From Kagunavirus BCH953P1: DNA of 44,622 bases. How positions within the stretch are numbered: position 1 is the first letter of the stretch; each line of letters begins with the position of its first letter. The stretch lies in the sequence record OZ035754.1. One strand, given 5' to 3'. The translations under genes were made by a program, and so were the position numbers. Positions 4,201 to 35,865 of this stretch are shown here, one piece after another. The notes beneath the pieces were generated by a model, which ran no database searches, was not told the DNA's origin, and worked only from the letters and a program-made list of their open reading frames with translations.

Positions 4201-4235
4201 TTCTAAATTCCTTATCTCTCGTTTCGATGTAATGA

Positions 4236-4264
4236 ATAGTACCCTATTATATTGGGGTGCGCAA
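4236..4264 (-). promoter_or_regulatory. sigma70-type promoter P1 (TTGCGC-N17-TACTAT), B-family
   Basis: On minus strand TTGCGCACCCCAATATAATAGGGTACTAT; identical over about 33 nt to the copy at 13781..13809; immediately upstream of the minus ORF 3964..4200. Confidence 0.6.
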
Positions 4265-13765: not shown

Positions 13766-13780
13766 TGTTGGTGTAAGTGA

Positions 13781-13809
13781 ATAGTACCCTATTATATTGG
13801 GGTGCGCAA
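13781..13809 (-). promoter_or_regulatory. sigma70-type promoter P2 (TTGCGC-N17-TACTAT), identical copy of P1
   Basis: Same about 33-nt sequence as at 4236..4264; precedes the minus-strand cassette 13765..11351. Confidence 0.6.
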
Positions 13810-26285: not shown

Positions 26286-26600
26286 TTATAATTCCTTATA
26301 TTGTTGGGGTATGTGCTTACTATAATAGTCTGCTATTAGGGTGTCAACCTGTTTTATAGAGCCAACCACAAAAACATTTGCGCCGCGTTTGCGCATCCGC
26401 TCATGTTCTCGTAGCTGGTGCGGGTCTGGCTTCGTGTTTTCGTCTTTCTTAACCTCGACAAACCATATGATGCCGCCGGGGAGCATTACCAGCAAGTCGG
26501 GGGCGCCGGAGCGCCCCTCGTAGGAAAGTTTACGAACGAGGCCCCCCAGGGCCTCGAATCGGTCTTTCGCGTATTTCTGTACGCGGCCCTCTTTAGTCAT
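26286..26600 (-). CDS. VRR-NUC domain nuclease (PD-(D/E)xK)
   Basis: 104 aa; GAPDLLVM ... FVEVK pattern typical of VRR-NUC. Confidence 0.55.
   Translation of the reverse strand: MTKEGRVQKYAKDRFEALGGLVRKLSYEGRSGAPDLLVMLPGGIIWFVEVKKDENTKPDPHQLREHERMRKRGANVFVVGSIKQVDTLIADYYSKHIPQQYKEL
26319..26347 (-). promoter_or_regulatory. sigma70-type promoter P3 (TTGACA-N17-TATAGT), A-family
   Basis: On minus strand TTGACACCCTAATAGCAGACTATTATAGT; lies in the 3' end of the VRR-NUC gene, upstream of 26030..26284. Confidence 0.55.
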
Positions 26601-26831: not shown

Positions 26832-26963
26832 TCACTCCAGCACCCACAGATAAATTGCGATAAACATACCTAATACGGCGACCATCATGCCGTATTGACC
26901 CTCGTGACAGTAGACACCGGCGGCGAATCCCGCCAGTACCGCGATAATCAGTTTACTTAGCAT
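26832..26963 (-). CDS. hypothetical small membrane peptide (43 aa)
   Basis: Read from sequence; hydrophobic; start overlaps DNA polymerase stop. Confidence 0.3.
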   Translation of the reverse strand: MLSKLIIAVLAGFAAGVYCHEGQYGMMVAVLGMFIAIYLWVLE

Positions 26964-29154
26964 AACGCTTCATCTCCGCACCTTCTGCCACAAGAGGGAA
27001 CCCCTCGGCCCAATCAGGTAATTCGCACATTAATTTCTCCAGTTCGGCCACCGTGTACTCGGGGGTGTCCGGAGTTTCGCACACCAGTTCATCGTGTACA
27101 GAAAGCACGATGGGATACCCGCCACCCTCAACATTAATCATTGCATATGCGAGTAAATCACGGCACAGCGCCTGAACAATGTTTTCGCAGGCTTTGCCGC
27201 CGTGCGTGTACAGGGTAGTCCATTGGCGGGTTAACTGGTTTTCACCCTGATACTTGATTCTCACATTCGTGTTTACCCGTCCGTCTTCGTCTGTTTCCTT
27301 TGTCACACTAACGCCGATTCCCGGATACGAGAGGATGCGACCTGACGGCAACTCCATACATAACCACCAACCGGGAACCTTCCTACCGGATGAATCAAAT
27401 TCTACTGTTCTCCAGATTCGGATAGCGCGCTCGCCATTCTTGCGCAGATGTGCCCCCGCCCAAAATTCACGACCCGGATTTCTTACAGCGGCTAAAATAC
27501 CGTCTTTGAGGTCGCGCCAGAACGCTACTGTTTCCGGGTGTGACTCGCGCCACATACGCTTGATTGCGTCGCAGGTGCGCCACACTTTCTTGTCCAGAAT
27601 ATACGATGGTCGGTCATCCTTCTCACCTGGATGCGGGGGGCGCTTGGCTTCCTGAATACGCGCCCACTCATACCCACGTGCGGTAGCAGCCCATATGTGG
27701 TCAGGGAATGTACCGTCCATTGTTTTAGTCATCTCAATAAGGTCGAGGCCTAAGTTTTTGGCGAACGTAACGAACGCTCCTACACCCCCCTCATAGCCGA
27801 GGCCAAGCTCGCAGGCCTTGCCTATCTGTCTGATTTCCTTGAAGTTTTTCTTAATATCATCTGGGTCCATGCCGAACATCTTACCCGCGGTTACGCAGTA
27901 AATATCAAGGCCGGCGCGGAACGTATCGAGCGCGGTTTCTTCACCGGCCAGCCACGCTAAACCGCGACCTTCGACGTTAGAATAATCGGCAACAACAAAC
28001 TTATGTCCTGCTTCCGGTATGATGCAGCTACGCACCGTCGATGCCGTCAGCTTGGCCACGTCGAAACGGCGGTGCGCGCGGCCTTTAAGTAGCGCAGAAA
28101 TGCCTTTATCCAGTTCATCATCGTGATAGTACCCGCGCGCCAGGTTCTGCGGCTGGAAGCCTTTACCTGCCCATCGCAGAGTACGTTTTGCCCCGCCGTA
28201 CTGTAAACACCCCCGACGGCGGTCGTCCGAAGAGCGGCCTAACAACAGCGGGTTATATTTCGTTGATGCGGTGGACGCGGCCCCGAGGCGCATTTCGATA
28301 ATCGTGCGGGCGTCATCCGGTAAGTCCTCGTCCGCCAGCAGGTCGTTAAGGGTAGACTTCTGTGCGTTGTGAATGCGGTGCGCGGGGGCGAGTTCACGCA
28401 GAATCGGAAGGAAGTCCTTTCCGGTAAGCGAGCCGCCGTATTTGCGTTGTGCTTCTTCCTGTAACTGCGCCTTGTGTTTCTCTACGGCTTCAATCGCGGC
28501 TTCCGCCAGTGCAACGTCAACCTTAAACCCGCGGTCGTTGATTAACTGGTCCAATTCCAGTACCCGGTCTTCGAACTCGGAATTACCCCAACGCGGCAGC
28601 TTATGGAATACTTCTCGCATCGCAGTGATGTCGCTCACGGCGTACTTGATGAACAGCGCCCACTCGTCCGGGTGTGTTTCTGCGGTGTAGCGGCGAATTT
28701 TGTAGTTCTTCGGTGTCGGTTTAGAGAAACGCTTAATCAGTGCCTTGCCGCGCTTATCCTTCGCATTGTCAGCGGACACGCCCAGCACTTCGCACAACGC
28801 ATCAAGTGACCCCGGCAGCGCGTGACGAAACGCCCAAATCATCGTATCAATGGTGTTGCTTACCGGAATATCAAAGCCCCAGCAGTGTTTCATGATAAGG
28901 CGATCGAAAAGTCCACCGTTGTGCCACACCATCTTGATGCGGCTGTTTGGCTTAACCAGACGGCGTAACGCGCGGTGCAAATCGCCCGGCATGTCGCTGC
29001 CGTCGGTGCAATCCCATACCTGCACCGGCTCGTCGTCAAAAGCATAGGTACAGATAAGCACTTCGGTAGTTGGGTGTTCAGCGTAGGCGTAGGAACCGAC
29101 TTTCTTTAAATTGGCTTCGGAGAATGTTTCAAAGTCTAAGAACAGGTAACTCAT
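26953..29154 (-). CDS. DNA polymerase, family A, with N-terminal 3'-5' exonuclease domain
   Basis: 733 aa; N-terminal exo I motif LFLDFETFS; C-terminal LSVHDELV motif C-like. Confidence 0.85.
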   Translation of the reverse strand: MSYLFLDFETFSEANLKKVGSYAYAEHPTTEVLICTYAFDDEPVQVWDCTDGSDMPGDLHRALRRLVKPNSRIKMVWHNGGLFDRLIMKHCWGFDIPVSNTIDTMIWAFRHALPGSLDALCEVLGVSADNAKDKRGKALIKRFSKPTPKNYKIRRYTAETHPDEWALFIKYAVSDITAMREVFHKLPRWGNSEFEDRVLELDQLINDRGFKVDVALAEAAIEAVEKHKAQLQEEAQRKYGGSLTGKDFLPILRELAPAHRIHNAQKSTLNDLLADEDLPDDARTIIEMRLGAASTASTKYNPLLLGRSSDDRRRGCLQYGGAKRTLRWAGKGFQPQNLARGYYHDDELDKGISALLKGRAHRRFDVAKLTASTVRSCIIPEAGHKFVVADYSNVEGRGLAWLAGEETALDTFRAGLDIYCVTAGKMFGMDPDDIKKNFKEIRQIGKACELGLGYEGGVGAFVTFAKNLGLDLIEMTKTMDGTFPDHIWAATARGYEWARIQEAKRPPHPGEKDDRPSYILDKKVWRTCDAIKRMWRESHPETVAFWRDLKDGILAAVRNPGREFWAGAHLRKNGERAIRIWRTVEFDSSGRKVPGWWLCMELPSGRILSYPGIGVSVTKETDEDGRVNTNVRIKYQGENQLTRQWTTLYTHGGKACENIVQALCRDLLAYAMINVEGGGYPIVLSVHDELVCETPDTPEYTVAELEKLMCELPDWAEGFPLVAEGAEMKRYAK

Positions 29155-29213: not shown

Positions 29214-29837
29214 TTAGCGGCGACGACGTTCGCGGCGCGGTGCTTCATCTTCGTCGTCTTCGAGGTCATCGACACTTGCAGCAACTTTAGAGCCACCGAA
29301 CGCTTTACCTTCGCCTACGTATTTAATCGCCAGCAGGTTAACACCGAGAACTTTGTATTTCTGGCTGAACCAAATTTCAACGCTTACGTTAGCGACGCAG
29401 CCGCTGTAAACCTGTTCACCTTCAATCTGTTCGCCGTCTACATTGAAGTCCTGCTCTACCTGAGTCTCGCCTTTTTTAGAGGTTACAATCAGCGGTTGTT
29501 TCTGTGCCTTCGCTTTGAAGTAGAAGCCTTCGGGGAAGTCTTCAAACGGATTGTCGCGCTCTGCAATATCTTTAATCGCGCATTTATCCATGTGCTTACC
29601 TTCGCCGTAGTTGGACTTCATCCATTTCTCGGCAGCGGCTGCGCCTAACGCTTCTTCAACTACAGCGTAAACGGTGTCGTAAAGCGCGTCGATTTGAGCA
29701 TGGCCAGACGGCAGGATAATCGTCGCGCTGTACTGGCCTTTAGTGATTGAACCATCATCGTTTTCACGGTCTTTTTCGCGTTCGAATACGTTAACCCATG
29801 CAGTGTTTACTTTACGCAGATTCAGTTTAATACCCAT
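29214..29837 (-). CDS. putative single-stranded DNA-binding protein (DUF2815-like), acidic C-terminal tail
   Basis: 207 aa; acidic tail DDLEDDEDE near C-terminus; sits between polymerase and exonuclease genes; own promoter P4. Confidence 0.45.
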   Translation of the reverse strand: MGIKLNLRKVNTAWVNVFEREKDRENDDGSITKGQYSATIILPSGHAQIDALYDTVYAVVEEALGAAAAEKWMKSNYGEGKHMDKCAIKDIAERDNPFEDFPEGFYFKAKAQKQPLIVTSKKGETQVEQDFNVDGEQIEGEQVYSGCVANVSVEIWFSQKYKVLGVNLLAIKYVGEGKAFGGSKVAASVDDLEDDEDEAPRRERRRR

Positions 29838-29890
29838 CGTGATTTCTCGCTTTTCAGTTTACTCCGGGAACTGCCCGGCCAGTGATTAGA

Positions 29891-29919
29891 ACTATAATAG
29901 CTAACTATTCAGGTGTCAA
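29891..29919 (-). promoter_or_regulatory. sigma70-type promoter P4 (TTGACA-N17-TATAGT), A-family
   Basis: On minus strand TTGACACCTGAATAGTTAGCTATTATAGT in the intergenic gap upstream of 29214..29837. Confidence 0.6.
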
Positions 29920-29923
29920 CACT

Positions 29924-30415
29924 TTATTTGCCGTGATTTTCGTGGAAACCGTACTTAACCTCTGCGGCCTTTCGCGCTGCTATTGCGCCGTCGATAGTTT
30001 CAAAACGTCCGAGATGAATTAGTTTCTTCTCAACTTTTATCTCAGCTCGCCATTTGCCGCGGGTTTTATCGAAACTAACACCCGTCACCCCTGACGTGTT
30101 GTTGCGGGCTAAAGATAAATTACGGCTGTTCTCTTTTCGGGTTGTTTTCCTTAAATTAGAAAGAAGATTATTTTCCCGATTATGGTCAATATGGTCTATC
30201 TCCTCTCCAGGTTGAAGTTTATTTTCAGGGTTCATCATATCCCATATAATTCTATGCGCCAGAAATGTCCTTCCACGTAAACGTACGCACACATAGCCCC
30301 AATTACGGACAGACGCGACCTCGCTCCCAGCGGGTGCACGATTGCTGTTAGTTACGCGCCAATACAACTTACCGGTATTGGTATCATACCTAAAATAATC
30401 TTCCCATTTAATCAT
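29924..30415 (-). CDS. HNH homing endonuclease with AP2 DNA-binding domain (copy 1)
   Basis: HNH motif EIDHIDHNRENN; AP2-like SGVTGVSFDKTRGKWRAEI; start at internal ATG 30415 in ATGA overlap with exonuclease stop. Confidence 0.75.
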   Translation of the reverse strand: MIKWEDYFRYDTNTGKLYWRVTNSNRAPAGSEVASVRNWGYVCVRLRGRTFLAHRIIWDMMNPENKLQPGEEIDHIDHNRENNLLSNLRKTTRKENSRNLSLARNNTSGVTGVSFDKTRGKWRAEIKVEKKLIHLGRFETIDGAIAARKAAEVKYGFHENHGK

Positions 30416-31653
30416 TCCAAATCCTCCTCTGTTACCCCCTTCCACTCAGGTCGTTTGTCGTCCGCCGTTGTAACGCATGGGGCTCCGGGCTTACGCGTGA
30501 TGAAGTTTTTTAGTTCTTCTTCTGGGATAACTTTCAAGGCTGCTGTAGGGGTCATGATTGACTTAGTCATAACTTTATCACCAAATTTAGCAATAACGGC
30601 ATCGGGGTCCGCCCAGGAGCGATTGCCATCCCGCCCTTCAACCAGCTTGTACCCCGGAACTTTCTTACCGGAATGCAACGCGGCAGCCATAGCTTTCTCA
30701 ACCTTGTCGATGTGCTGGCGCAACAACGGCAGCTTCTCATACTCGGCGACGAGTTGCTCTGGCGTCAATTCCAGCGCAAAGTCGTCCTCAAGTTCTTCCG
30801 CCAGTACCGCGTTAACGGTTTTTGTACGCGCGGCGCACTGTTCGGAGAACCGACACCACTGGCAACCATCTACTGACGGCTTGAAGTCCGACGCTTTCAG
30901 GTTCTTCTTGCCACGGAAATACGCATCAAGAGCTAACAGCGCACGTTTCTGTGCAAACTTAGCGAACAGTTCCAGACCTTCAACCGAGATGTCCCACTCC
31001 GACGCACCCCCAGCGTACGGCTGGAAGATGACCAGACGAACCATTGTTATGTTATAACGTCTCTTTAGTCGGCGATAAACACCGAGAGCGTAAAGCATAA
31101 GCTGCTTGTTTTCTTTCGCTTCGACACGATGTCGTCCTGTTTTCAGGTCGCCGATGATAAGCATGTGCTCTTCGGTGTTCGCCAGTTCCTGGACGGCAAC
31201 AAGGTCAGCGGTTCCGAACGTCTCGACACCTTCGTAACCAGGATGCAATACCTCAGTAAGATTGACGCGCATTTCCAGCTTAGCGTAAGTCGCTACGTCC
31301 ATAATCGCTTTGCAGTAGTCGGTGTACTTTCGCACCTGCTCAATCATGTCAGCCGTAATCAGCACCGCGCCTTTCATCGGGCTGATTAGCGCCTTAATCT
31401 GGCCTTTACCCTCATCCAGCACGTAAGCACCGACTTCGCGCTCTAACGGCAGTGCAGTGCCTTTTATGTACTGGTTTAAATGTACCTCAGCTATGGTGTG
31501 ACACGCGGTCCCTGTAACGGCGGCTTTACCTGACGTGTTGGGGATATCTTTTTCACAGGCCAGTGATGCACTGCACGCCAACCATTTCTTAGCACCGGAC
31601 GGTGACAACAGCGCGTGCACATCGTTATTGCCCCTGCGTTCTTTTAATTTCAT
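30412..31653 (-). CDS. PD-(D/E)xK exonuclease (Cas4/RecB-like, DUF2800-like) with C-terminal Cys cluster
   Basis: 413 aa; IIGDLKTGRH...EAKENKQLMLYALG nuclease core; Cys cluster CQWCRFSEQC. Confidence 0.6.
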   Translation of the reverse strand: MKLKERRGNNDVHALLSPSGAKKWLACSASLACEKDIPNTSGKAAVTGTACHTIAEVHLNQYIKGTALPLEREVGAYVLDEGKGQIKALISPMKGAVLITADMIEQVRKYTDYCKAIMDVATYAKLEMRVNLTEVLHPGYEGVETFGTADLVAVQELANTEEHMLIIGDLKTGRHRVEAKENKQLMLYALGVYRRLKRRYNITMVRLVIFQPYAGGASEWDISVEGLELFAKFAQKRALLALDAYFRGKKNLKASDFKPSVDGCQWCRFSEQCAARTKTVNAVLAEELEDDFALELTPEQLVAEYEKLPLLRQHIDKVEKAMAAALHSGKKVPGYKLVEGRDGNRSWADPDAVIAKFGDKVMTKSIMTPTAALKVIPEEELKNFITRKPGAPCVTTADDKRPEWKGVTEEDLE

Positions 31654-32144
31654 CTTTTAACCCCATGATTTTTGTGGAACCCGTAAATCTCTTCTGCTTT
31701 CTTTCTAACGTTTACCGCATCGTCGAAGCTGTCGAAGTATCCTAAATGCTTCAATACCTTGTTTATTTTTATACTTGCCCGCCATCTACCGCGCCTACGG
31801 CACCATGAAACTCCGGTCACACCTGACGTATTTAGCGACGACATTCCAGAATTACGCCGGTTGCCTAGACTGTCAACTTTACGAAGATTAGATATGCGAT
31901 TATTCCTTCTGTCATGGTCTATATGGTCAATCTGGTCGCCGCTACTTAAAACATCATTAGGATTACAAAGTTCCCATATAACACGGTGCACTTTATAGAC
32001 CTTACCTAACACTTGTACCTGTTTATAGCCGTGAACATCATTCGACCCCGCCTCTTGGCCTACCTTTACCTTATCCGAAGGGCTTATCTTCCAAAATAAT
32101 TTACCGGTATCAGGGTCATAGTCAAAAACTTCATGCCAATTCAT
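31650..32144 (-). CDS. HNH homing endonuclease with AP2 domain (copy 2, paralog)
   Basis: HNH motif QIDHIDHDRRNN; AP2-like SGVTGVSWCRRRGRWRASI; ATGA overlaps at both ends. Confidence 0.75.
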   Translation of the reverse strand: MNWHEVFDYDPDTGKLFWKISPSDKVKVGQEAGSNDVHGYKQVQVLGKVYKVHRVIWELCNPNDVLSSGDQIDHIDHDRRNNRISNLRKVDSLGNRRNSGMSSLNTSGVTGVSWCRRRGRWRASIKINKVLKHLGYFDSFDDAVNVRKKAEEIYGFHKNHGVKR

Positions 32145-32413
32145 ACTCTGTTCTCCCACTGGTCGATTAAATGTCTGGTCCGGTGATGACAATGCATAGC
32201 CCAGCCATACATCGACTCGAAGACATAAAAGTCAGGCTTGGCGAATGTCGTGCGCTTAATCTGCGACAAGTGACGGCCTATATCTTTAGGCCGTGGCACT
32301 TTGCCTAAGTACGCCATCTCTTCCATCTGGTGCGCACCGGATGGCGCACGCAATAGCCATAGCGCCTCTGTGCTATCCCGCCGGTCTACGGCGCGGTAGA
32401 GTTGGTAAATCAT
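32141..32413 (-). CDS. hypothetical protein (90 aa)
   Basis: Track ORF. Confidence 0.5.
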   Translation of the reverse strand: MIYQLYRAVDRRDSTEALWLLRAPSGAHQMEEMAYLGKVPRPKDIGRHLSQIKRTTFAKPDFYVFESMYGWAMHCHHRTRHLIDQWENRV

Positions 32414-32975: not shown

Positions 32976-33006
32976 TTGTTTCTCTCCTCTCGTTTGGTAT
33001 GGGCTA

Positions 33007-33035
33007 ACTATAATAGCGAACTATTCACTTGTCAA
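33007..33035 (-). promoter_or_regulatory. sigma70-type promoter P5 (TTGACA-N17-TATAGT), A-family
   Basis: On minus strand TTGACAAGTGAATAGTTCGCTATTATAGT; perfect -35. Confidence 0.6.
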
Positions 33036-33099: not shown

Positions 33100-33315
33100 A
33101 TGCAACCATCTGAACTAGGCATCCGTGTAGAACAGCGCCGTAAAGAACTCGGCATTTCCCAACGCCGTCTGGCTGTCCTGGCCGGTGTTTCCCAGGGCGC
33201 GATTAACCAGCTGGCACTCGGTGTAACTAAGGACGTCCGCCCGTCGACGTTGTTTAAGCTGGCGGAAGTGCTGCAAGTAGACGCCAAGTGGCTGGCGTTC
33301 GGTGAAGGGGCTTAA
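33100..33315 (+). CDS. XRE-family helix-turn-helix transcriptional regulator (Cro/CI-like)
   Basis: 71 aa; HTH ISQRRLAVLAGVSQGAINQL; SD AAGGAG; opposite orientation to flanking genes. Confidence 0.75.
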   Translation: MQPSELGIRVEQRRKELGISQRRLAVLAGVSQGAINQLALGVTKDVRPSTLFKLAEVLQVDAKWLAFGEGA

Positions 33316-33330
33316 CGCCCCTTTCTTTTT
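33306..33330 (+). terminator. rho-independent terminator (aggggc-ttaac-gcccct then tttcttttt)
   Basis: Seen directly, between convergent HTH and primase genes. Confidence 0.6.
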
Positions 33331-33332
33331 AC

Positions 33333-35573
33333 CTACTCCAAATCCTCCTCTGTCACCACCAGCATTTCATTCGGTTCGTATATTGTCTTCGGCCTTAGTC
33401 TATCCCCTATTCTTTCAGGTATACGATATGTTCTCGGTACTACTTCGCCATTAGCGTCGCAGCCTAGCATCAACTCACCGTCTTTCAGCATTTTATCAAG
33501 ATGGGTGTTAGTCACAGAAAAGTCACCGGAACGGGCCACTATCTGCTGCTGGGTAAAACCGCGACCTGTATCATCTGACTGTTGCAGGTCTTCCAGTGCT
33601 GAAAGTATTGACTCCTTCCTTACTTCATCCCTGCCGCGTTTAACTTCTTCCTTTACTTTTTGTTTACCTTCGTTAGTTAACCCTTCTTCCCGCTCTTTCT
33701 CCTCGTCAGTTTTGAACGGCTCGAAACCCCACGGCATAAGCACAAGCGCCTTGTGCGGCTCCGGCAGGTCGAGGTTTACTATTGTGCCGTATTCCTCTGT
33801 GCTACCGAGGAACTCAACCGCGCGATACTCTTTCGGCGGAGGAGCTTCACGAAACTGTACAGACTCCAGCACCATACCAACCGTTTTCTGTTGAGGCCCG
33901 TGCTTAAATTTCGAATGGTATACGTTTATCTGGCGGTCGGTTGCACGTTCAATTGTCAGTTCCACGTCGACGCCCGCATACAGCGCCCCACTACCACGGG
34001 CTTTCTTTCCGCCCTTCGGCGTATGGTGGACGACGCCAACCGCAGCTTTAGTCGCGTCGCGTACTTCTTTCAGTATGGCGATAACTTTACCCATGCCAAT
34101 CGCCGTTGATGAACTGTTTTCGTCGAACTTATCAATCGTCAGGGCCAGCGTCTGGTTTAGGGTGTCGAACGCAACCATACCGATTGGCTCGTCGCCGGCG
34201 GTTTCACGCATCAACTTAATAAGGCTTTTCAGTTTGCCAACTTCGCCCATGTCGATGACATGTACATAATCTTTACCTTCCTCGCCGTATTTAGCCGCGA
34301 GTGCGTCAATACGTGTGCGTGTAGCTGCGCCGCCCTCACCGTCAATATAGAAATGGTGGCAACGCTGGGTATCCGCCCCTGCAAACCGGTATCCGGCGGC
34401 GCTCAGGTACATCATCCCCAGCGTATAGAACGATTTGTACGTGCCGGATTCCCCAACAATATCCCAGATACAATCTGACGGCATGTACCCCTCAACGACG
34501 AAATCAGCCTTTACCGGTTCCGGTAGCTCGTCCTCTTCTGAGTCATCATCGTCTTCCAGGTCGTCGAGGCTGCATGAAACAGATTCACGCGCACCCCATC
34601 CGATAGCCTCGGCGACTTCACTGAACGGCAGCCCGGTCGCATCACACGCGTATTTCCACACTTCTTTCGGTGACATGCCTTCGGTCGCCGCAATGTCGGT
34701 GTCGTGAATCATGGTTACGTTAGGTGCGGCGTAGCCCTCACGTGGGAAGCACAGCAGGAAGTCGTCCGGACGCGGTGTCGGGTCGCTGTAGTTTTCTGCA
34801 TGCTCTGGTGTGGCTGGCATCTTAAGGCCGCGTGGTGTCATAGCACCGCCGTACTCGAACGCCAACGCCTCAAAAGCGTCCGTAAACGCTGTGCGTAGTT
34901 CTTCCGGTATCTGGTAGTCAGATGCGCTGCTCACCTCGTAATCCGGGATGCCCTCCAGTAACTCGTCCGGGTCAATCAGGTCGTTACGGCGCGACCAGAT
35001 AACCTGCGAGCCGACCGGCGGCAGGTACATCGGCTGAGACAGAGTGAACCCGCTGCGGTCCGCACCCATGCCTTTGAAGAAGTGTTCCAACAATCCATGA
35101 CGAACGCGGATGATGTCACCGCCCTCAACCGTTCGGGCCAGCGGCATGACGACGCGAAAGCGCGGGGCTTCGTCTGTGTGTGATGCCGTGGTGTAGAGGC
35201 ACATGGCTTTACGGCTGCGCTTAACCAGGCGCACAGCTTCCTGATACTCTTCCAGGGTTGCGCTGTCGAAGTCCAGGTACGTCAGCGACGATTTGTTTAC
35301 AGACGCGTCGCAGCGGTAGAAGAAGCCCCGGCGCGCTTGCTTAAAGTCACCGGTTTCCGGGTCTTTTACGGTGCTGTGCGTAGAATCGCACGCGGCAGTA
35401 ATATAGCCCGGCGCGGTCTTCGGATTAATCCCGTCACGAACGGCATCGAGCGGCTGGATTAACTCTTTCAGGTCGTCCAGTGTTGCCGTGTGAGTGGTTC
35501 TGACGTTTATATCCTTTTTCTCTGCCCGCGCGTTGCGACGAGACCACGAGTAGGATAAAATTACATCGGACAT
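33333..35573 (-). CDS. DNA primase/helicase (RecA-like AAA_25-type ATPase domain in C-terminal half)
   Basis: 746 aa; Walker A-like VGESGTYKS, Walker B-like region; N-terminal half unassigned (primase-like by position). Confidence 0.6.
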   Translation of the reverse strand: MSDVILSYSWSRRNARAEKKDINVRTTHTATLDDLKELIQPLDAVRDGINPKTAPGYITAACDSTHSTVKDPETGDFKQARRGFFYRCDASVNKSSLTYLDFDSATLEEYQEAVRLVKRSRKAMCLYTTASHTDEAPRFRVVMPLARTVEGGDIIRVRHGLLEHFFKGMGADRSGFTLSQPMYLPPVGSQVIWSRRNDLIDPDELLEGIPDYEVSSASDYQIPEELRTAFTDAFEALAFEYGGAMTPRGLKMPATPEHAENYSDPTPRPDDFLLCFPREGYAAPNVTMIHDTDIAATEGMSPKEVWKYACDATGLPFSEVAEAIGWGARESVSCSLDDLEDDDDSEEDELPEPVKADFVVEGYMPSDCIWDIVGESGTYKSFYTLGMMYLSAAGYRFAGADTQRCHHFYIDGEGGAATRTRIDALAAKYGEEGKDYVHVIDMGEVGKLKSLIKLMRETAGDEPIGMVAFDTLNQTLALTIDKFDENSSSTAIGMGKVIAILKEVRDATKAAVGVVHHTPKGGKKARGSGALYAGVDVELTIERATDRQINVYHSKFKHGPQQKTVGMVLESVQFREAPPPKEYRAVEFLGSTEEYGTIVNLDLPEPHKALVLMPWGFEPFKTDEEKEREEGLTNEGKQKVKEEVKRGRDEVRKESILSALEDLQQSDDTGRGFTQQQIVARSGDFSVTNTHLDKMLKDGELMLGCDANGEVVPRTYRIPERIGDRLRPKTIYEPNEMLVVTEEDLE

Positions 35574-35631: not shown

Positions 35632-35865
35632 TTATTCCAGGTCTTCTAAAGTAGCGGCCATTCCGCGAACTTCAGCAACAGCACTATATTTCCCACCAAC
35701 ATTTTTCACGACACCAGATTTAACCAGCACCTTCAACGACCCTTCAATAATGGCGGAACTATAGTACCTAAAATAACTACGGCGCAAGTCGATAACGCTG
35801 CACGACCCTTTTTTACGTGTTAACGAAACGACTGCCGTGAATACGCGTGACTGGAACTCGGTCAT
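35632..35865 (-). CDS. hypothetical protein (77 aa)
   Basis: Track ORF; C-terminus ends EDLE like two other proteins in this block. Confidence 0.5.
   Translation of the reverse strand: MTEFQSRVFTAVVSLTRKKGSCSVIDLRRSYFRYYSSAIIEGSLKVLVKSGVVKNVGGKYSAVAEVRGMAATLEDLE

What the first reader, a model, noticed from the sequence alone, without database searches (positions are those of the whole stretch)
33337..33353. 17-nt exact repeat at the 3' ends of the primase and exonuclease genes: possible empty homing-endonuclease site
ACAGAGGAGGATTTGGA (read on the minus strand) ends both the exonuclease gene (30416..30432), where it encodes the C-terminal TEEDLE and provides the AGGAGG ribosome-binding site for HNH copy 1, and the primase/helicase gene (33337..33353), where it again encodes TEEDLE but is followed by a terminator, not an HNH gene. 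A third protein (35632..35865) also ends in EDLE. I estimate roughly a 0.1 chance of an exact 17-mer match arising at random in a genome this size (my rough calculation); the same coding position in both genes makes coincidence less likely. Candidate explanations are a remnant or target of HNH insertion, or a shared 3' regulatory element.
Basis: seen in the sequence. Interest (0 to 1): 0.5.

Follow-up and report, generated by a model that had tools for sequence, protein, structure and literature searches.

The report
Shared protein tail doubles as RBS
The repeated 17 bases encode the same short acidic tail on two phage DNA-replication proteins, spelled so that they also form a ribosome-binding site for any small extra gene plugged in behind (here a homing endonuclease); this is tidy but ordinary phage genome architecture, not an endonuclease target.

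Summary
The window is a Kagunavirus-like (Guernseyvirinae) phage. The repeat encodes T-E-E-D-L-E, the C-terminus of both the primase-helicase and the DUF2800 exonuclease. The peptide, not the DNA, is the conserved object. An acidic [ST][DE][DE]DL tail ends both proteins even in phages whose primase is only about 30% identical, with different codons and gene orientations.

The nucleotide identity comes from a second layer. Spelled GAG GAG GAT TTR GAA TGA, the tail is a Shine-Dalgarno sequence 7 nt before an ATG that overlaps the stop codon. In relatives the exonuclease 3' end has two states:
- 23 distinct "occupied" alleles carry this spelling plus a coupled downstream gene, from at least 7 unrelated families (the HNH is one).
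- 19 "empty" alleles read AGT GAA GAA ... TAA and run straight into the SSB promoter.

Six further look-ups matched this rule. The primase 3' end is a similar insertion hotspot, empty in this window. In relatives it holds small ORFs of unknown function and never an HNH gene.

The "shared 3' regulatory element" alternative is closest. Interest is low to moderate.

The parts
33337..33353 (-). 17-mer copy B: last codons (T-E-E-D-L-E) of the primase-helicase. This is the 'empty' state: GAG TAG stop, no downstream start codon.
   Evidence: The same spelling occurs in many HNH-free relatives. GAGGAG is present in 13 of 23 empty Kagunavirus-type alleles and in 13 of 13 occupied ones.
30416..30432 (-). 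17-mer copy A: last codons (T-E-E-D-L-E) of the exonuclease. This is the 'occupied' state: GAGGAGG (30423-30429) is the Shine-Dalgarno sequence 7 nt upstream of the HNH1 ATG, and the stop and start overlap as ATGA.
33333..35573 (-). Primase-helicase gene (746 aa, AAA_25 domain), ending VTEEDLE.
   Evidence: The acidic DL tail is kept in homologues down to 27-34% identity.
30412..31653 (-). DUF2800 / PD-(D/E)XK exonuclease gene (413 aa), ending VTEEDLE. The tail lies outside the Pfam domain (residues 13-402).
29924..30415 (-). HNH1 (163 aa, HNH_3 + AP2): the cargo gene occupying the socket behind the exonuclease gene.
   Evidence: The same gene sits at the same place in SHAK7693, Ivi, HSE2 and L169-L172.
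29891..29919 (-). Promoter (TTGACA-17-TATAGT) of the SSB gene. It forms the right-hand boundary of the exonuclease-site socket.
   Evidence: (repeat family D1).
29214..29837 (-). gp2.5/Enc34-type ssDNA-binding protein: the conserved gene downstream of the socket and a candidate partner of the tails.
31650..32144 (-). HNH2 (164 aa, HNH_3 + AP2), occupying a third ATGA junction between the 90-aa gene and the exonuclease gene.
32141..32413 (-). 90-aa gene. Its 3' end (..TGGGAGAACAGAGTATGA) always overlaps the start of whatever gene follows.
33304..33324 (+). Hairpin between the primase stop and the HTH gene stop. It is terminator-like on the + strand and forms the right-hand boundary of the primase-site socket.
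33100..33315 (+). Convergent HTH repressor-like gene.
35632..35865 (-). 77-aa winged-helix protein ending TLEDLE. It is the third bearer of the tail, with different codons (GAA GAC CTG GAA TAA), and is never followed by cargo.

Best explanation
The 17-mer is the coding sequence of a conserved acidic C-terminal tail (V-T-E-E-D-L-E-COOH). The primase-helicase and the DUF2800 exonuclease both carry it, and the small winged-helix protein carries it in other codons. Layer 1 (shown as conservation; function inferred): the tail is a selected peptide motif. It is most likely a flexible docking tail that brings these proteins to a common replisome partner, as the acidic tails of T7 gp4 and gp2.5 do with T7 DNA polymerase. 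The partner here is unknown; the family-A polymerase or the gp2.5-type SSB are the candidates. Layer 2 (shown by comparison): acidic tails are built from GAN codons. Choosing G-ending Glu codons and a GAA-TGA ending turns the tail into GAGGAGG-N7-ATGA. That is a strong Shine-Dalgarno sequence plus an overlapping stop and start, which translationally couples a downstream gene. Phages of this group insert variable small accessory genes, HNH endonucleases among them, exactly at these gene ends. When the socket is filled the tail has the SD spelling; when it is empty the exonuclease tail has the non-SD spelling and a TAA stop. In this window the exonuclease socket is filled (HNH1). The primase socket is empty but keeps the SD spelling that is commonest for this gene. 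That combination produces the exact 17-nt match.
For: Peptide layer:
- TEEDLE, TEGDLE or TEDDLE ends the primase, and [ST]E[ED]DLE ends the exonuclease, in all Kagunavirus and Jerseyvirus relatives, with synonymous variation.
- In more distant phages (primase 27-34% identical, exonuclease 45-58%) both proteins still end [ST/A][DE][DE]DL-x(0-3), although the genes lie on opposite strands.
- Across 11 such loci, 21 of the 22 ORFs with this tail (out of 833 frames) are the exonuclease or the primase.
- The DUF2800 family as a whole has an acidic-hydrophobic tail after the conserved DKRP motif.
- In the model of the 77-aa protein, residues 1-65 form a confident winged helix and the tail has low pLDDT.
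- T7 precedent: PMC12593628 and PMC5686142.

RBS layer:
- Exonuclease 3' end: 23 distinct occupied alleles all read GAGGAG or GAGGAT with an overlapping ATG; 19 empty alleles all read GAAGAA or GAAGAC. Fisher p = 2e-12, but the alleles are not phylogenetically independent.
- Six of six later look-ups chosen by tail type agreed with this rule.
- Primase: GAGGAG in 13 of 13 occupied versus 13 of 23 empty alleles (p = 0.006).
- Independent lineages make an SD with other bases. In Jerseyvirus one of the two intact occupied primase tails, and a third with a truncated downstream ORF, read GAAGGAGAT, whereas the five empty tails read GAAGGGGAT (one occupied allele does too). The Jerseyvirus exonuclease changes from GAAGAC to GAGGAG or GAGGAT. 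Distant phages read GATGAGGAT when occupied and GACGACGAT when empty.
- The occupied and empty exonuclease alleles differ only in the last ~20 nt.
- The always-coupled junction between the 90-aa gene and the exonuclease gene shows no such switch.
- The identical 18-mer precedes coupled genes in unrelated Gram-positive phage contigs.
Against: - No binding partner is shown, so the docking function is an analogy. The tail lacks the terminal aromatic residue that is essential in T7.
- The SD function is inferred from sequence and co-variation, not from expression data.
- Given the peptide, identical codons have a probability of only about 0.008 under this phage's codon usage. After fixing GAG GAG, my own arithmetic from the same codon frequencies gives about 0.03, so shared ancestry or recombination of the two tails may also contribute.
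- The perfect exonuclease association could partly reflect two old haplotypes that recombine as blocks, rather than repeated selection. The S/T difference (AGT versus ACA) that travels with the SD spelling is not needed for an SD.
Confidence: 0.75

Rival explanations
1. The 17-mer is the recognition or cleavage site, or a leftover, of HNH homing. On this view the primase 3' end is an unoccupied target of HNH1 or HNH2.
For: HNH1 starts immediately after the exonuclease copy. HNH1 and HNH2 are HNH_3 + AP2 proteins typical of free-standing homing endonucleases. HNH1-linked exonuclease alleles carry a private change (AAGGGG, 'KG', instead of AATCAG, 'NQ') just 5' of the tail in all 12 protein clusters and 7 loci seen. 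This could be a co-conversion tract or a self-immunity change. The primase 3' end is a real insertion hotspot.
Against: The same junction precedes at least 7 unrelated cargo families at the exonuclease site and 4 at the primase site, most of them ORFs of unknown function. No HNH gene directly follows the primase gene in about 100 related loci. No record in 50,697 phage genomes joins the primase end to HNH1 or HNH2; the joined hits that did appear have the HNH behind the HTH gene or at the junction between the 90-aa gene and the exonuclease gene. The 17-mer is the commonest primase spelling in HNH-free relatives. A target equal to the 17-mer would be present twice in the HNH-bearing genome itself.
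Confidence: 0.1
2. The identity is a DNA-level event. Either gene conversion or recombination occurred between the two tails, or the tail acts as a portable left-hand homology arm through which cargo cassettes are captured and exchanged, possibly by the phage's own exonuclease and annealing-SSB pair.
For: The nucleotide identity exceeds what the shared peptide predicts (P about 0.008). The occupied exonuclease block (GTA ACA GAG GAG .. TGA) differs from the empty block by six linked changes, with no intermediates. One of these is a Ser-to-Thr change that makes it look like the primase tail. Both tails use the rare codons GAT TTR, whereas the third tail uses GAC CTG. One cargo (L023, 60 aa) is flanked by a direct duplication of the tail: GAGGATTTAGAATGA ... 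GAAGATTTAGAATAA. It therefore itself ends KKEDLE. Two unrelated primase-site cargos share their last ~12 nt.
Against: No cargo family was found at both sites in the IMG/VR loci or in GenBank phages. The right-hand boundaries differ: a promoter at one site and a hairpin at the other. Thr is also the state in Jerseyvirus exonuclease tails whether occupied or empty, so it may simply be ancestral. SD-making changes recur with different bases in other lineages, which selection explains without exchange between sites.
Confidence: 0.12
3. The match is chance and has no meaning.
For: Some exact direct repeat of 17 nt or more appears in 6% of simulated windows.
Against: Both copies occupy the identical reading-frame position at two gene ends. 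The peptide is conserved across hundreds of relatives and in distant phages. The codon state tracks occupancy.
Confidence: 0.01

Closest known systems
Acidic C-terminal tails of T7 gp4 helicase-primase and gp2.5 SSB, which bind basic patches on T7 DNA polymerase
   Same: Short, acidic, C-terminal and probably flexible segments carried by more than one replication protein of the same phage. The phage here also has a family-A polymerase and a gp2.5/Enc34-type SSB.
   Different: The bearers here are the primase-helicase, a DUF2800 nuclease and a small winged-helix protein. The motif is [ST][DE][DE]DL-x, with Leu rather than a terminal Phe. The SSB itself ends in a basic RRERRRR stretch after its acidic run. 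No interaction has been shown.
Translational coupling through an overlapping stop/start (ATGA), with the Shine-Dalgarno sequence inside the upstream ORF (general bacterial and phage operon grammar; my own knowledge)
   Same: GAGGAGG lies 7 nt before an ATG that overlaps the TGA stop. The SD is present whenever a downstream gene is present.
   Different: The SD is spelled inside a functionally constrained peptide motif. The same solution therefore arises at two genes, and the codons toggle with occupancy.
Free-standing HNH homing endonuclease genes, and morons, inserted between conserved phage genes (for example the seg and mob genes of T4-type phages; my own knowledge). Jerseyvirus mosaicism with homing endonucleases is noted in PMC8425127.
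   Same: HNH_3 + AP2 genes are variably present between conserved replication genes. In this phage group they occur at six or more different intergenic positions.
   Different: The junction sequence is not specific to HNH genes. Most occupants are small ORFs of unknown function, and no target site has been defined.
Conserved boundary sequences flanking exchangeable gene cassettes (PeSL promoter-stem-loop cassettes in T4-type phages; lambdoid module boundaries; my own knowledge)
   Same: Variable cargo sits between conserved short sequences. The left boundary is the tail/SD/ATGA. The right boundary is the SSB promoter, a member of a repeated promoter family, or the hairpin.
   Different: The left and right boundaries are not copies of one element. 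No cargo has been seen at more than one site.

Membership tests
Homing-endonuclease target / empty homing site | The endonuclease gene occupies the homologous position in some relatives | tested here: not met
   For the primase 3' end, only non-HNH ORFs (65, 104, 135 and 191 aa) occupy it. Chimeric searches gave 0 records. The feature is met for the exonuclease 3' end, where HNH1 sits in a minority of relatives.
Homing-endonuclease target / empty homing site | The enzyme cleaves the intron-less or HEG-less allele at or near the insertion point | not testable with these tools
   This needs purified HNH1 or HNH2 and substrate DNA.
Homing-endonuclease target / empty homing site | Co-conversion or immunity polymorphisms flank the HEG | tested here: inconclusive
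   HNH1-linked alleles share AAGGGG (KG) instead of AATCAG (NQ) just upstream of the tail. This is compatible with co-conversion or with simple linkage.
Translationally coupled gene junction with an SD in the upstream ORF | An SD-like sequence lies 5-10 nt upstream of a start codon that overlaps or abuts the upstream stop | tested here: met
   GAGGAGG-ATTTGGA-ATGA at 30412-30429. The same junction occurs in 23 occupied exonuclease alleles and 15 occupied primase alleles.
Translationally coupled gene junction with an SD in the upstream ORF | The SD is maintained only when a downstream gene is present | tested here: met
   Exonuclease: 23/23 occupied versus 0/19 empty. Primase: 13/13 occupied versus 13/23 empty. 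Six of six prospective look-ups agreed. The alleles are not phylogenetically independent.
Translationally coupled gene junction with an SD in the upstream ORF | Expression of the downstream gene depends on the SD and on upstream translation | not testable with these tools
   This needs reporter fusions or ribosome profiling.
T7-type acidic C-terminal docking tail | A C-terminal, acidic segment outside the folded domain, conserved among homologues | tested here: met
   (outside DUF2800 residues 13-402).
T7-type acidic C-terminal docking tail | A terminal aromatic residue | tested here: not met
   The tails end DLE, DLS, DLxD and similar. Phe appears only in distant DUF2800 tails such as DDFEDL.
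T7-type acidic C-terminal docking tail | Binds a basic patch on the polymerase, or the SSB cleft | not testable with these tools
   No complex prediction or binding assay was available.
Mobile cassette with conserved boundary repeats (PeSL-like) | The same cargo is found at different sites bounded by the same sequences | tested here: not met
   No cargo is shared between the primase and exonuclease sites.
HNH_3 + AP2 free-standing endonuclease (for HNH1 and HNH2 themselves) | An HNH catalytic motif plus an AP2-type DNA-binding domain | tested here: met
   HNH_3 has E = 2e-12 and 1e-11, above the Pfam cut-off. AP2 matches fall below the cut-off (28.9 and 19.7 bits against 33.3).

The most novel reading that the evidence does not exclude
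The [ST][DE][DE]DL-COOH tail may be an undescribed replisome or recombination docking motif. It would be shared by the primase-helicase, the DUF2800 nuclease and a winged-helix protein across a broad clade of phages that have a Pol A and a gp2.5-type SSB. Because its codons are one synonymous step from a Shine-Dalgarno sequence, the ends of these genes would act as built-in expression sockets. The tail DNA itself might serve as the microhomology through which accessory genes, HNH endonucleases included, are captured. The tail duplication flanking the L023 cargo would be a footprint of that process.
Probability: 0.2. Interest if true: 0.5.

Novelty: new member of a known kind. Interest (0 to 1): 0.3.

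Why it matters
It replaces a speculative endonuclease-target story with a checked two-layer explanation. A conserved acidic tail is shared by replication proteins, and that tail is re-used as the ribosome-binding site for plug-in accessory genes. For phage biologists it offers:
- a testable candidate interaction motif for the poorly studied module of DUF2800 nuclease, Enc34-type SSB and primase-helicase;
- a simple sequence rule (tail spelling plus stop codon) that predicts whether an accessory gene follows;
- a map of three insertion hotspots in Guernseyvirinae replication modules, where accessory and possibly anti-defence genes accumulate.

None of this overturns current understanding.

Tried and rejected
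- Chance: rejected.
- An HNH gene directly after the primase gene. I searched with chimeric DNA queries (primase end + HNH1, primase end + HNH2) and a chimeric protein query. No adjacent case was found. The apparent joined hits (fBC-Eco01, SETP7, ZCEC5) have the HNH behind the HTH gene or at the junction between the 90-aa gene and the exonuclease gene.
- The same cargo at both sites. A chimeric protein query (exonuclease end + the two primase-site cargos) and its reciprocal found none.
- The 18-mer as a widespread mobile linker. An exact scan of IMG/VR found it outside this phage group only as ordinary RBS-like sequence and at the end of a MazG-like gene family of Gram-positive-type phage contigs.
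- Function of the cargo genes. PHROGs gave only 'unknown function' families or nothing.
- Identity of the 77-aa protein. There was no Pfam hit. The fold search gave only generic winged-helix matches, best E = 4e-3.
- The first homologue search for the exonuclease returned only relatives above 91% identity. The representative search was needed to see distant tails.
- I did not attempt a complex prediction, because the structure tool returns no interface measures.
Full report
**Observation.** The 17-mer ACAGAGGAGGATTTGGA occurs exactly twice in the window, on the minus strand at 30416-30432 and 33337-33353. No further copies appear at up to two mismatches. Both copies are the terminal codons ACA GAG GAG GAT TTG GA- of long minus-strand ORFs that end VTEEDLE. 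One ORF is a DUF2800/PD-(D/E)XK exonuclease (30412-31653). The other is an AAA_25 primase-helicase (33333-35573). At the exonuclease copy, the ATG of an HNH_3+AP2 gene (HNH1, 29924-30415) overlaps the exonuclease stop as ATGA, with GAGGAGG 7 nt upstream. At the primase copy the stop is TAG and a hairpin follows. That hairpin scores as an intrinsic terminator only on the + strand, so it serves the convergent HTH gene at 33100-33315. A 77-aa protein (35632-35865) ends TLEDLE. In the whole window these are the only three of 519 frames of at least 40 aa that end in [DE]L[DE]. Some exact direct repeat of 17 nt or more arises in 6% of simulated windows.

**Context.** The region matches 448 phage records, mostly Kagunavirus (E. 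coli) and Jerseyvirus (Salmonella), both in the Guernseyvirinae. I collected 3 annotated GenBank loci. I also collected 42 IMG/VR loci found with the primase protein, 51 found with the exact junction 18-mer, 68 more distant loci and 12 metagenomic loci. The module order is: winged-helix protein, primase-helicase, HTH (convergent), 172-aa gene, 90-aa gene, exonuclease, gp2.5/Enc34-type SSB, Pol A.

**The peptide is what is conserved.**
- The primase ends TEEDLE in Kagunavirus (rarely TEDDLE or TEGDLE) and TEGDLE in Jerseyvirus, with synonymous variation such as ACC GAG GAA, ACT GAG GAA and ACC GAG GAT.
- Nearly all of the 120 exonuclease protein clusters of at least 91% identity end in EEDLE; the only exceptions are single substitutions and one-residue truncations, preceded by T (about 70), S (about 45) or A.
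- The 77-aa protein keeps T[LP]EDLE with its own codons, GAA GAC CTG/CTT GAA.
- In more distant phages the primase is only 27-34% identical, the exonuclease 45-58%, and the two genes lie on opposite strands. Both proteins still end in [ST/A][DE][DE]DL-x(0-3). Examples are ASDEDLNS with ASDEDLS, AADEDLE with VSDSDLE, ATDDDLKD with ATDEDLSNE, and AGDEDLEN with ASDDDLAN.
- In 11 such loci, 21 of the 22 ORFs carrying this tail, out of 833 frames, are the exonuclease or the primase.
- Across the DUF2800 family down to about 33% identity, the segment after the conserved DKRP motif is an acidic-hydrophobic tail such as DDDL or DDFEDL.
- The tail lies outside the DUF2800 Pfam domain.
- In an AlphaFold model of the 77-aa protein, residues 1-65 form a confident winged helix and the last ~12 residues have low confidence.

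The natural reading is a flexible docking tail shared by replication and recombination proteins. This is inference by analogy. T7 gp4 and gp2.5 use acidic C-terminal tails to bind basic patches on T7 DNA polymerase (PMC12593628; PMC5686142). The partner here is unknown.

**The nucleotide identity comes from a second layer.** Given the peptide, identical codons would be expected with a probability of only about 0.008 under this phage's codon usage. The relatives explain the excess. The exonuclease 3' end exists in two states:
- *Empty:* ..GTT AGT GAA GAA GAT TTR GAA TAA, followed at once by AGTG and the TTGACA-17-TATAGT promoter of the SSB gene.
- *Occupied:* ..GTA ACA GAG GAG GAT TTR GAA TGA, with a downstream gene starting at the ATGA overlap.

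The occupants belong to at least seven unrelated families: HNH1, and ORFs of 52, 57, 60, 67, 78-83 and (in Jerseyvirus) 58 aa. Most have no known function. Among distinct alleles, 23 of 23 occupied ones have the SD-forming spelling and 0 of 19 empty ones do. The Fisher p-value is 2e-12, with the caveat that the alleles are not phylogenetically independent. The two classes differ only in the last ~20 nt; upstream polymorphisms are shared between them. As a prospective test I picked six exonuclease protein clusters by tail type alone. The three T/A tails had a coupled downstream gene (a 67-aa ORF, HNH1 and a 78-aa ORF). The three S tails ran straight into the promoter.

**The primase 3' end behaves in a similar way.**
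- Occupied alleles read GAGGAGGATTTRGAATGA and are followed by a 65-aa or a 104-aa ORF.
- Occupied Jerseyvirus alleles end GATTTAGAATGA and are followed by a 135-aa or 191-aa ORF; one of them spells an AAGGAG SD.
- Empty alleles end TAG or TAA before the hairpin, with relaxed spelling: GAGGAG in 13 of 23, against 13 of 13 occupied, p = 0.006.

Other lineages build an SD from different bases. In Jerseyvirus the primase tail reads GAAGGGGAT in the five empty alleles and GAAGGAGAT in one intact occupied allele and in one with a truncated downstream ORF, while the other occupied allele keeps GAAGGGGAT. The Jerseyvirus exonuclease tail changes from GAAGAC to GAGGAG or GAGGAT. Distant phages read GATGAGGAT when occupied and GACGACGAT when empty. 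A third junction, between the 90-aa gene and the exonuclease gene, always overlaps a downstream start. It shows no switch whether the next gene is the exonuclease, HNH2, or a 50-, 85- or 115-aa ORF.

The 17-mer match in this window is therefore an occupied exonuclease tail and an empty primase tail that keeps the commonest spelling for that gene.

**The homing-endonuclease reading.**
- HNH-family genes occur at six or more different intergenic positions in this phage group, but never directly behind the primase gene.
- Chimeric DNA queries (primase end + HNH1, primase end + HNH2) found no record with both parts adjacent among 50,697 phage genomes.
- A chimeric protein query also found none. 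Its joined hits place the HNH behind the HTH gene or at the junction between the 90-aa gene and the exonuclease gene.
- HNH1 itself is rare. It occurs in SHAK7693, Ivi, HSE2 and four metagenomic loci, always behind the exonuclease gene and always linked to a private KG (AAGGGG) variant just upstream of the tail. That variant could be a co-conversion or immunity mark, but it may be plain linkage.

The primase 17-mer is thus an empty accessory-gene socket, not a demonstrable HNH site. Cleavage was not testable.

**A DNA-level contribution cannot be excluded.**
- The occupied exonuclease block differs from the empty block by six linked changes. One is a Ser-to-Thr change that makes it resemble the primase tail, and there are no intermediates.
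- Both tails use the rare codons GAT TTR.
- One cargo (L023) is flanked by a duplication of the tail and therefore itself ends KKEDLE.
- Against exchange between the sites: no cargo family occurs at both sites, the right-hand boundaries differ, and Thr is also the Jerseyvirus state in both occupancy classes.

**Verdict.** The feature combines two known kinds of thing, acidic C-terminal tails on phage replisome proteins and translational coupling at accessory-gene hotspots. The specific motif and its toggling spelling have not, to my knowledge, been described for this group. Interest is low to moderate.

Noticed in passing
window 29214-29837 (-); also L097-L142: The gp2.5/Enc34-type SSB ends with an acidic run followed by a strongly basic C-terminus (..VDDLEDDEDEAPRRERRRR). 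The pattern 'acidic run then RPRRRRR/RKRRRR' is conserved in distant relatives. This is unusual for SSBs, which normally end acidic. The basic end could be the partner of the acidic DL tails.
   Followed up: partly
window 33333-35573 (-), internal linker; 29214-29837 (-): The primase-helicase has an internal acidic linker (..SLDDLEDDDDSEEDELPEP..) that shares DDLEDD with the SSB C-terminal region (SVDDLEDDEDE). Conservation and meaning were not examined.
   Followed up: no
window 26318-26347, 29890-29919, 33006-33035 (- strand promoters); 4233-4264 and 13778-13809: A repeated phage promoter family (TTGACAcCTGAATAGTTAGCTATTATAGT) lies in front of minus-strand gene blocks. A 32-nt exact repeat with the related core TGAATAGT..CTATTATAT lies on the + strand (repeat finder families D1 and D5).
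   Followed up: partly
L023 11230-11412 (same contig as L064): A 60-aa cargo gene behind the exonuclease gene ends ..KKEDLE. Its last 15 nt plus stop duplicate the native 'empty' exonuclease tail, so the insert is flanked by direct repeats of the tail sequence.
   Followed up: partly
L006, L026, L029, L032-L034 (Pol A gene): In several relatives the DNA polymerase match is split at about residue 446 by roughly 880 nt. This suggests an intron, intein or endonuclease insertion in the polymerase gene. The window's polymerase gene (26953-29154) is uninterrupted.
   Followed up: no
L049, L057, L063, L066, L083, L088, L091: Unrelated phage contigs of Gram-positive type carry a ~165-aa protein (MazG-like by eye) ending ..F[VI]KEEDLE, encoded by the identical 18-mer GAGGAGGATTTRGAATGA. 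It again overlaps the start of variable downstream genes (lipoprotein-like and YopX-like).
   Followed up: partly
L001 (OR594180.1, Escherichia phage vB_EcoM_SHAK7693): The GenBank record is classified as Autographiviridae/Kayfunavirus and named as a myovirus. Its replication module is nonetheless 92% identical to this Kagunavirus-like window. The taxonomy line looks wrong.
   Followed up: no
L011-L012, L017-L018, L022 (65-aa ORF) and L001, L020-L021, L024, L027, L039-L040 (104-aa ORF): The two unrelated cargo genes found behind the primase gene share their last ~12 nt (GATAAgkTGCAATAA) before the hairpin. This hints that cargo replacement happens between fixed boundaries that reach into the ORF ends.
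   Followed up: partly
L101 12393-12584: A 62-aa ORF downstream of the exonuclease gene in a distant relative also ends ..TATDEDLE. It is the only bearer of the acidic DL tail that is neither exonuclease nor primase among 833 frames in 11 distant loci.
   Followed up: no
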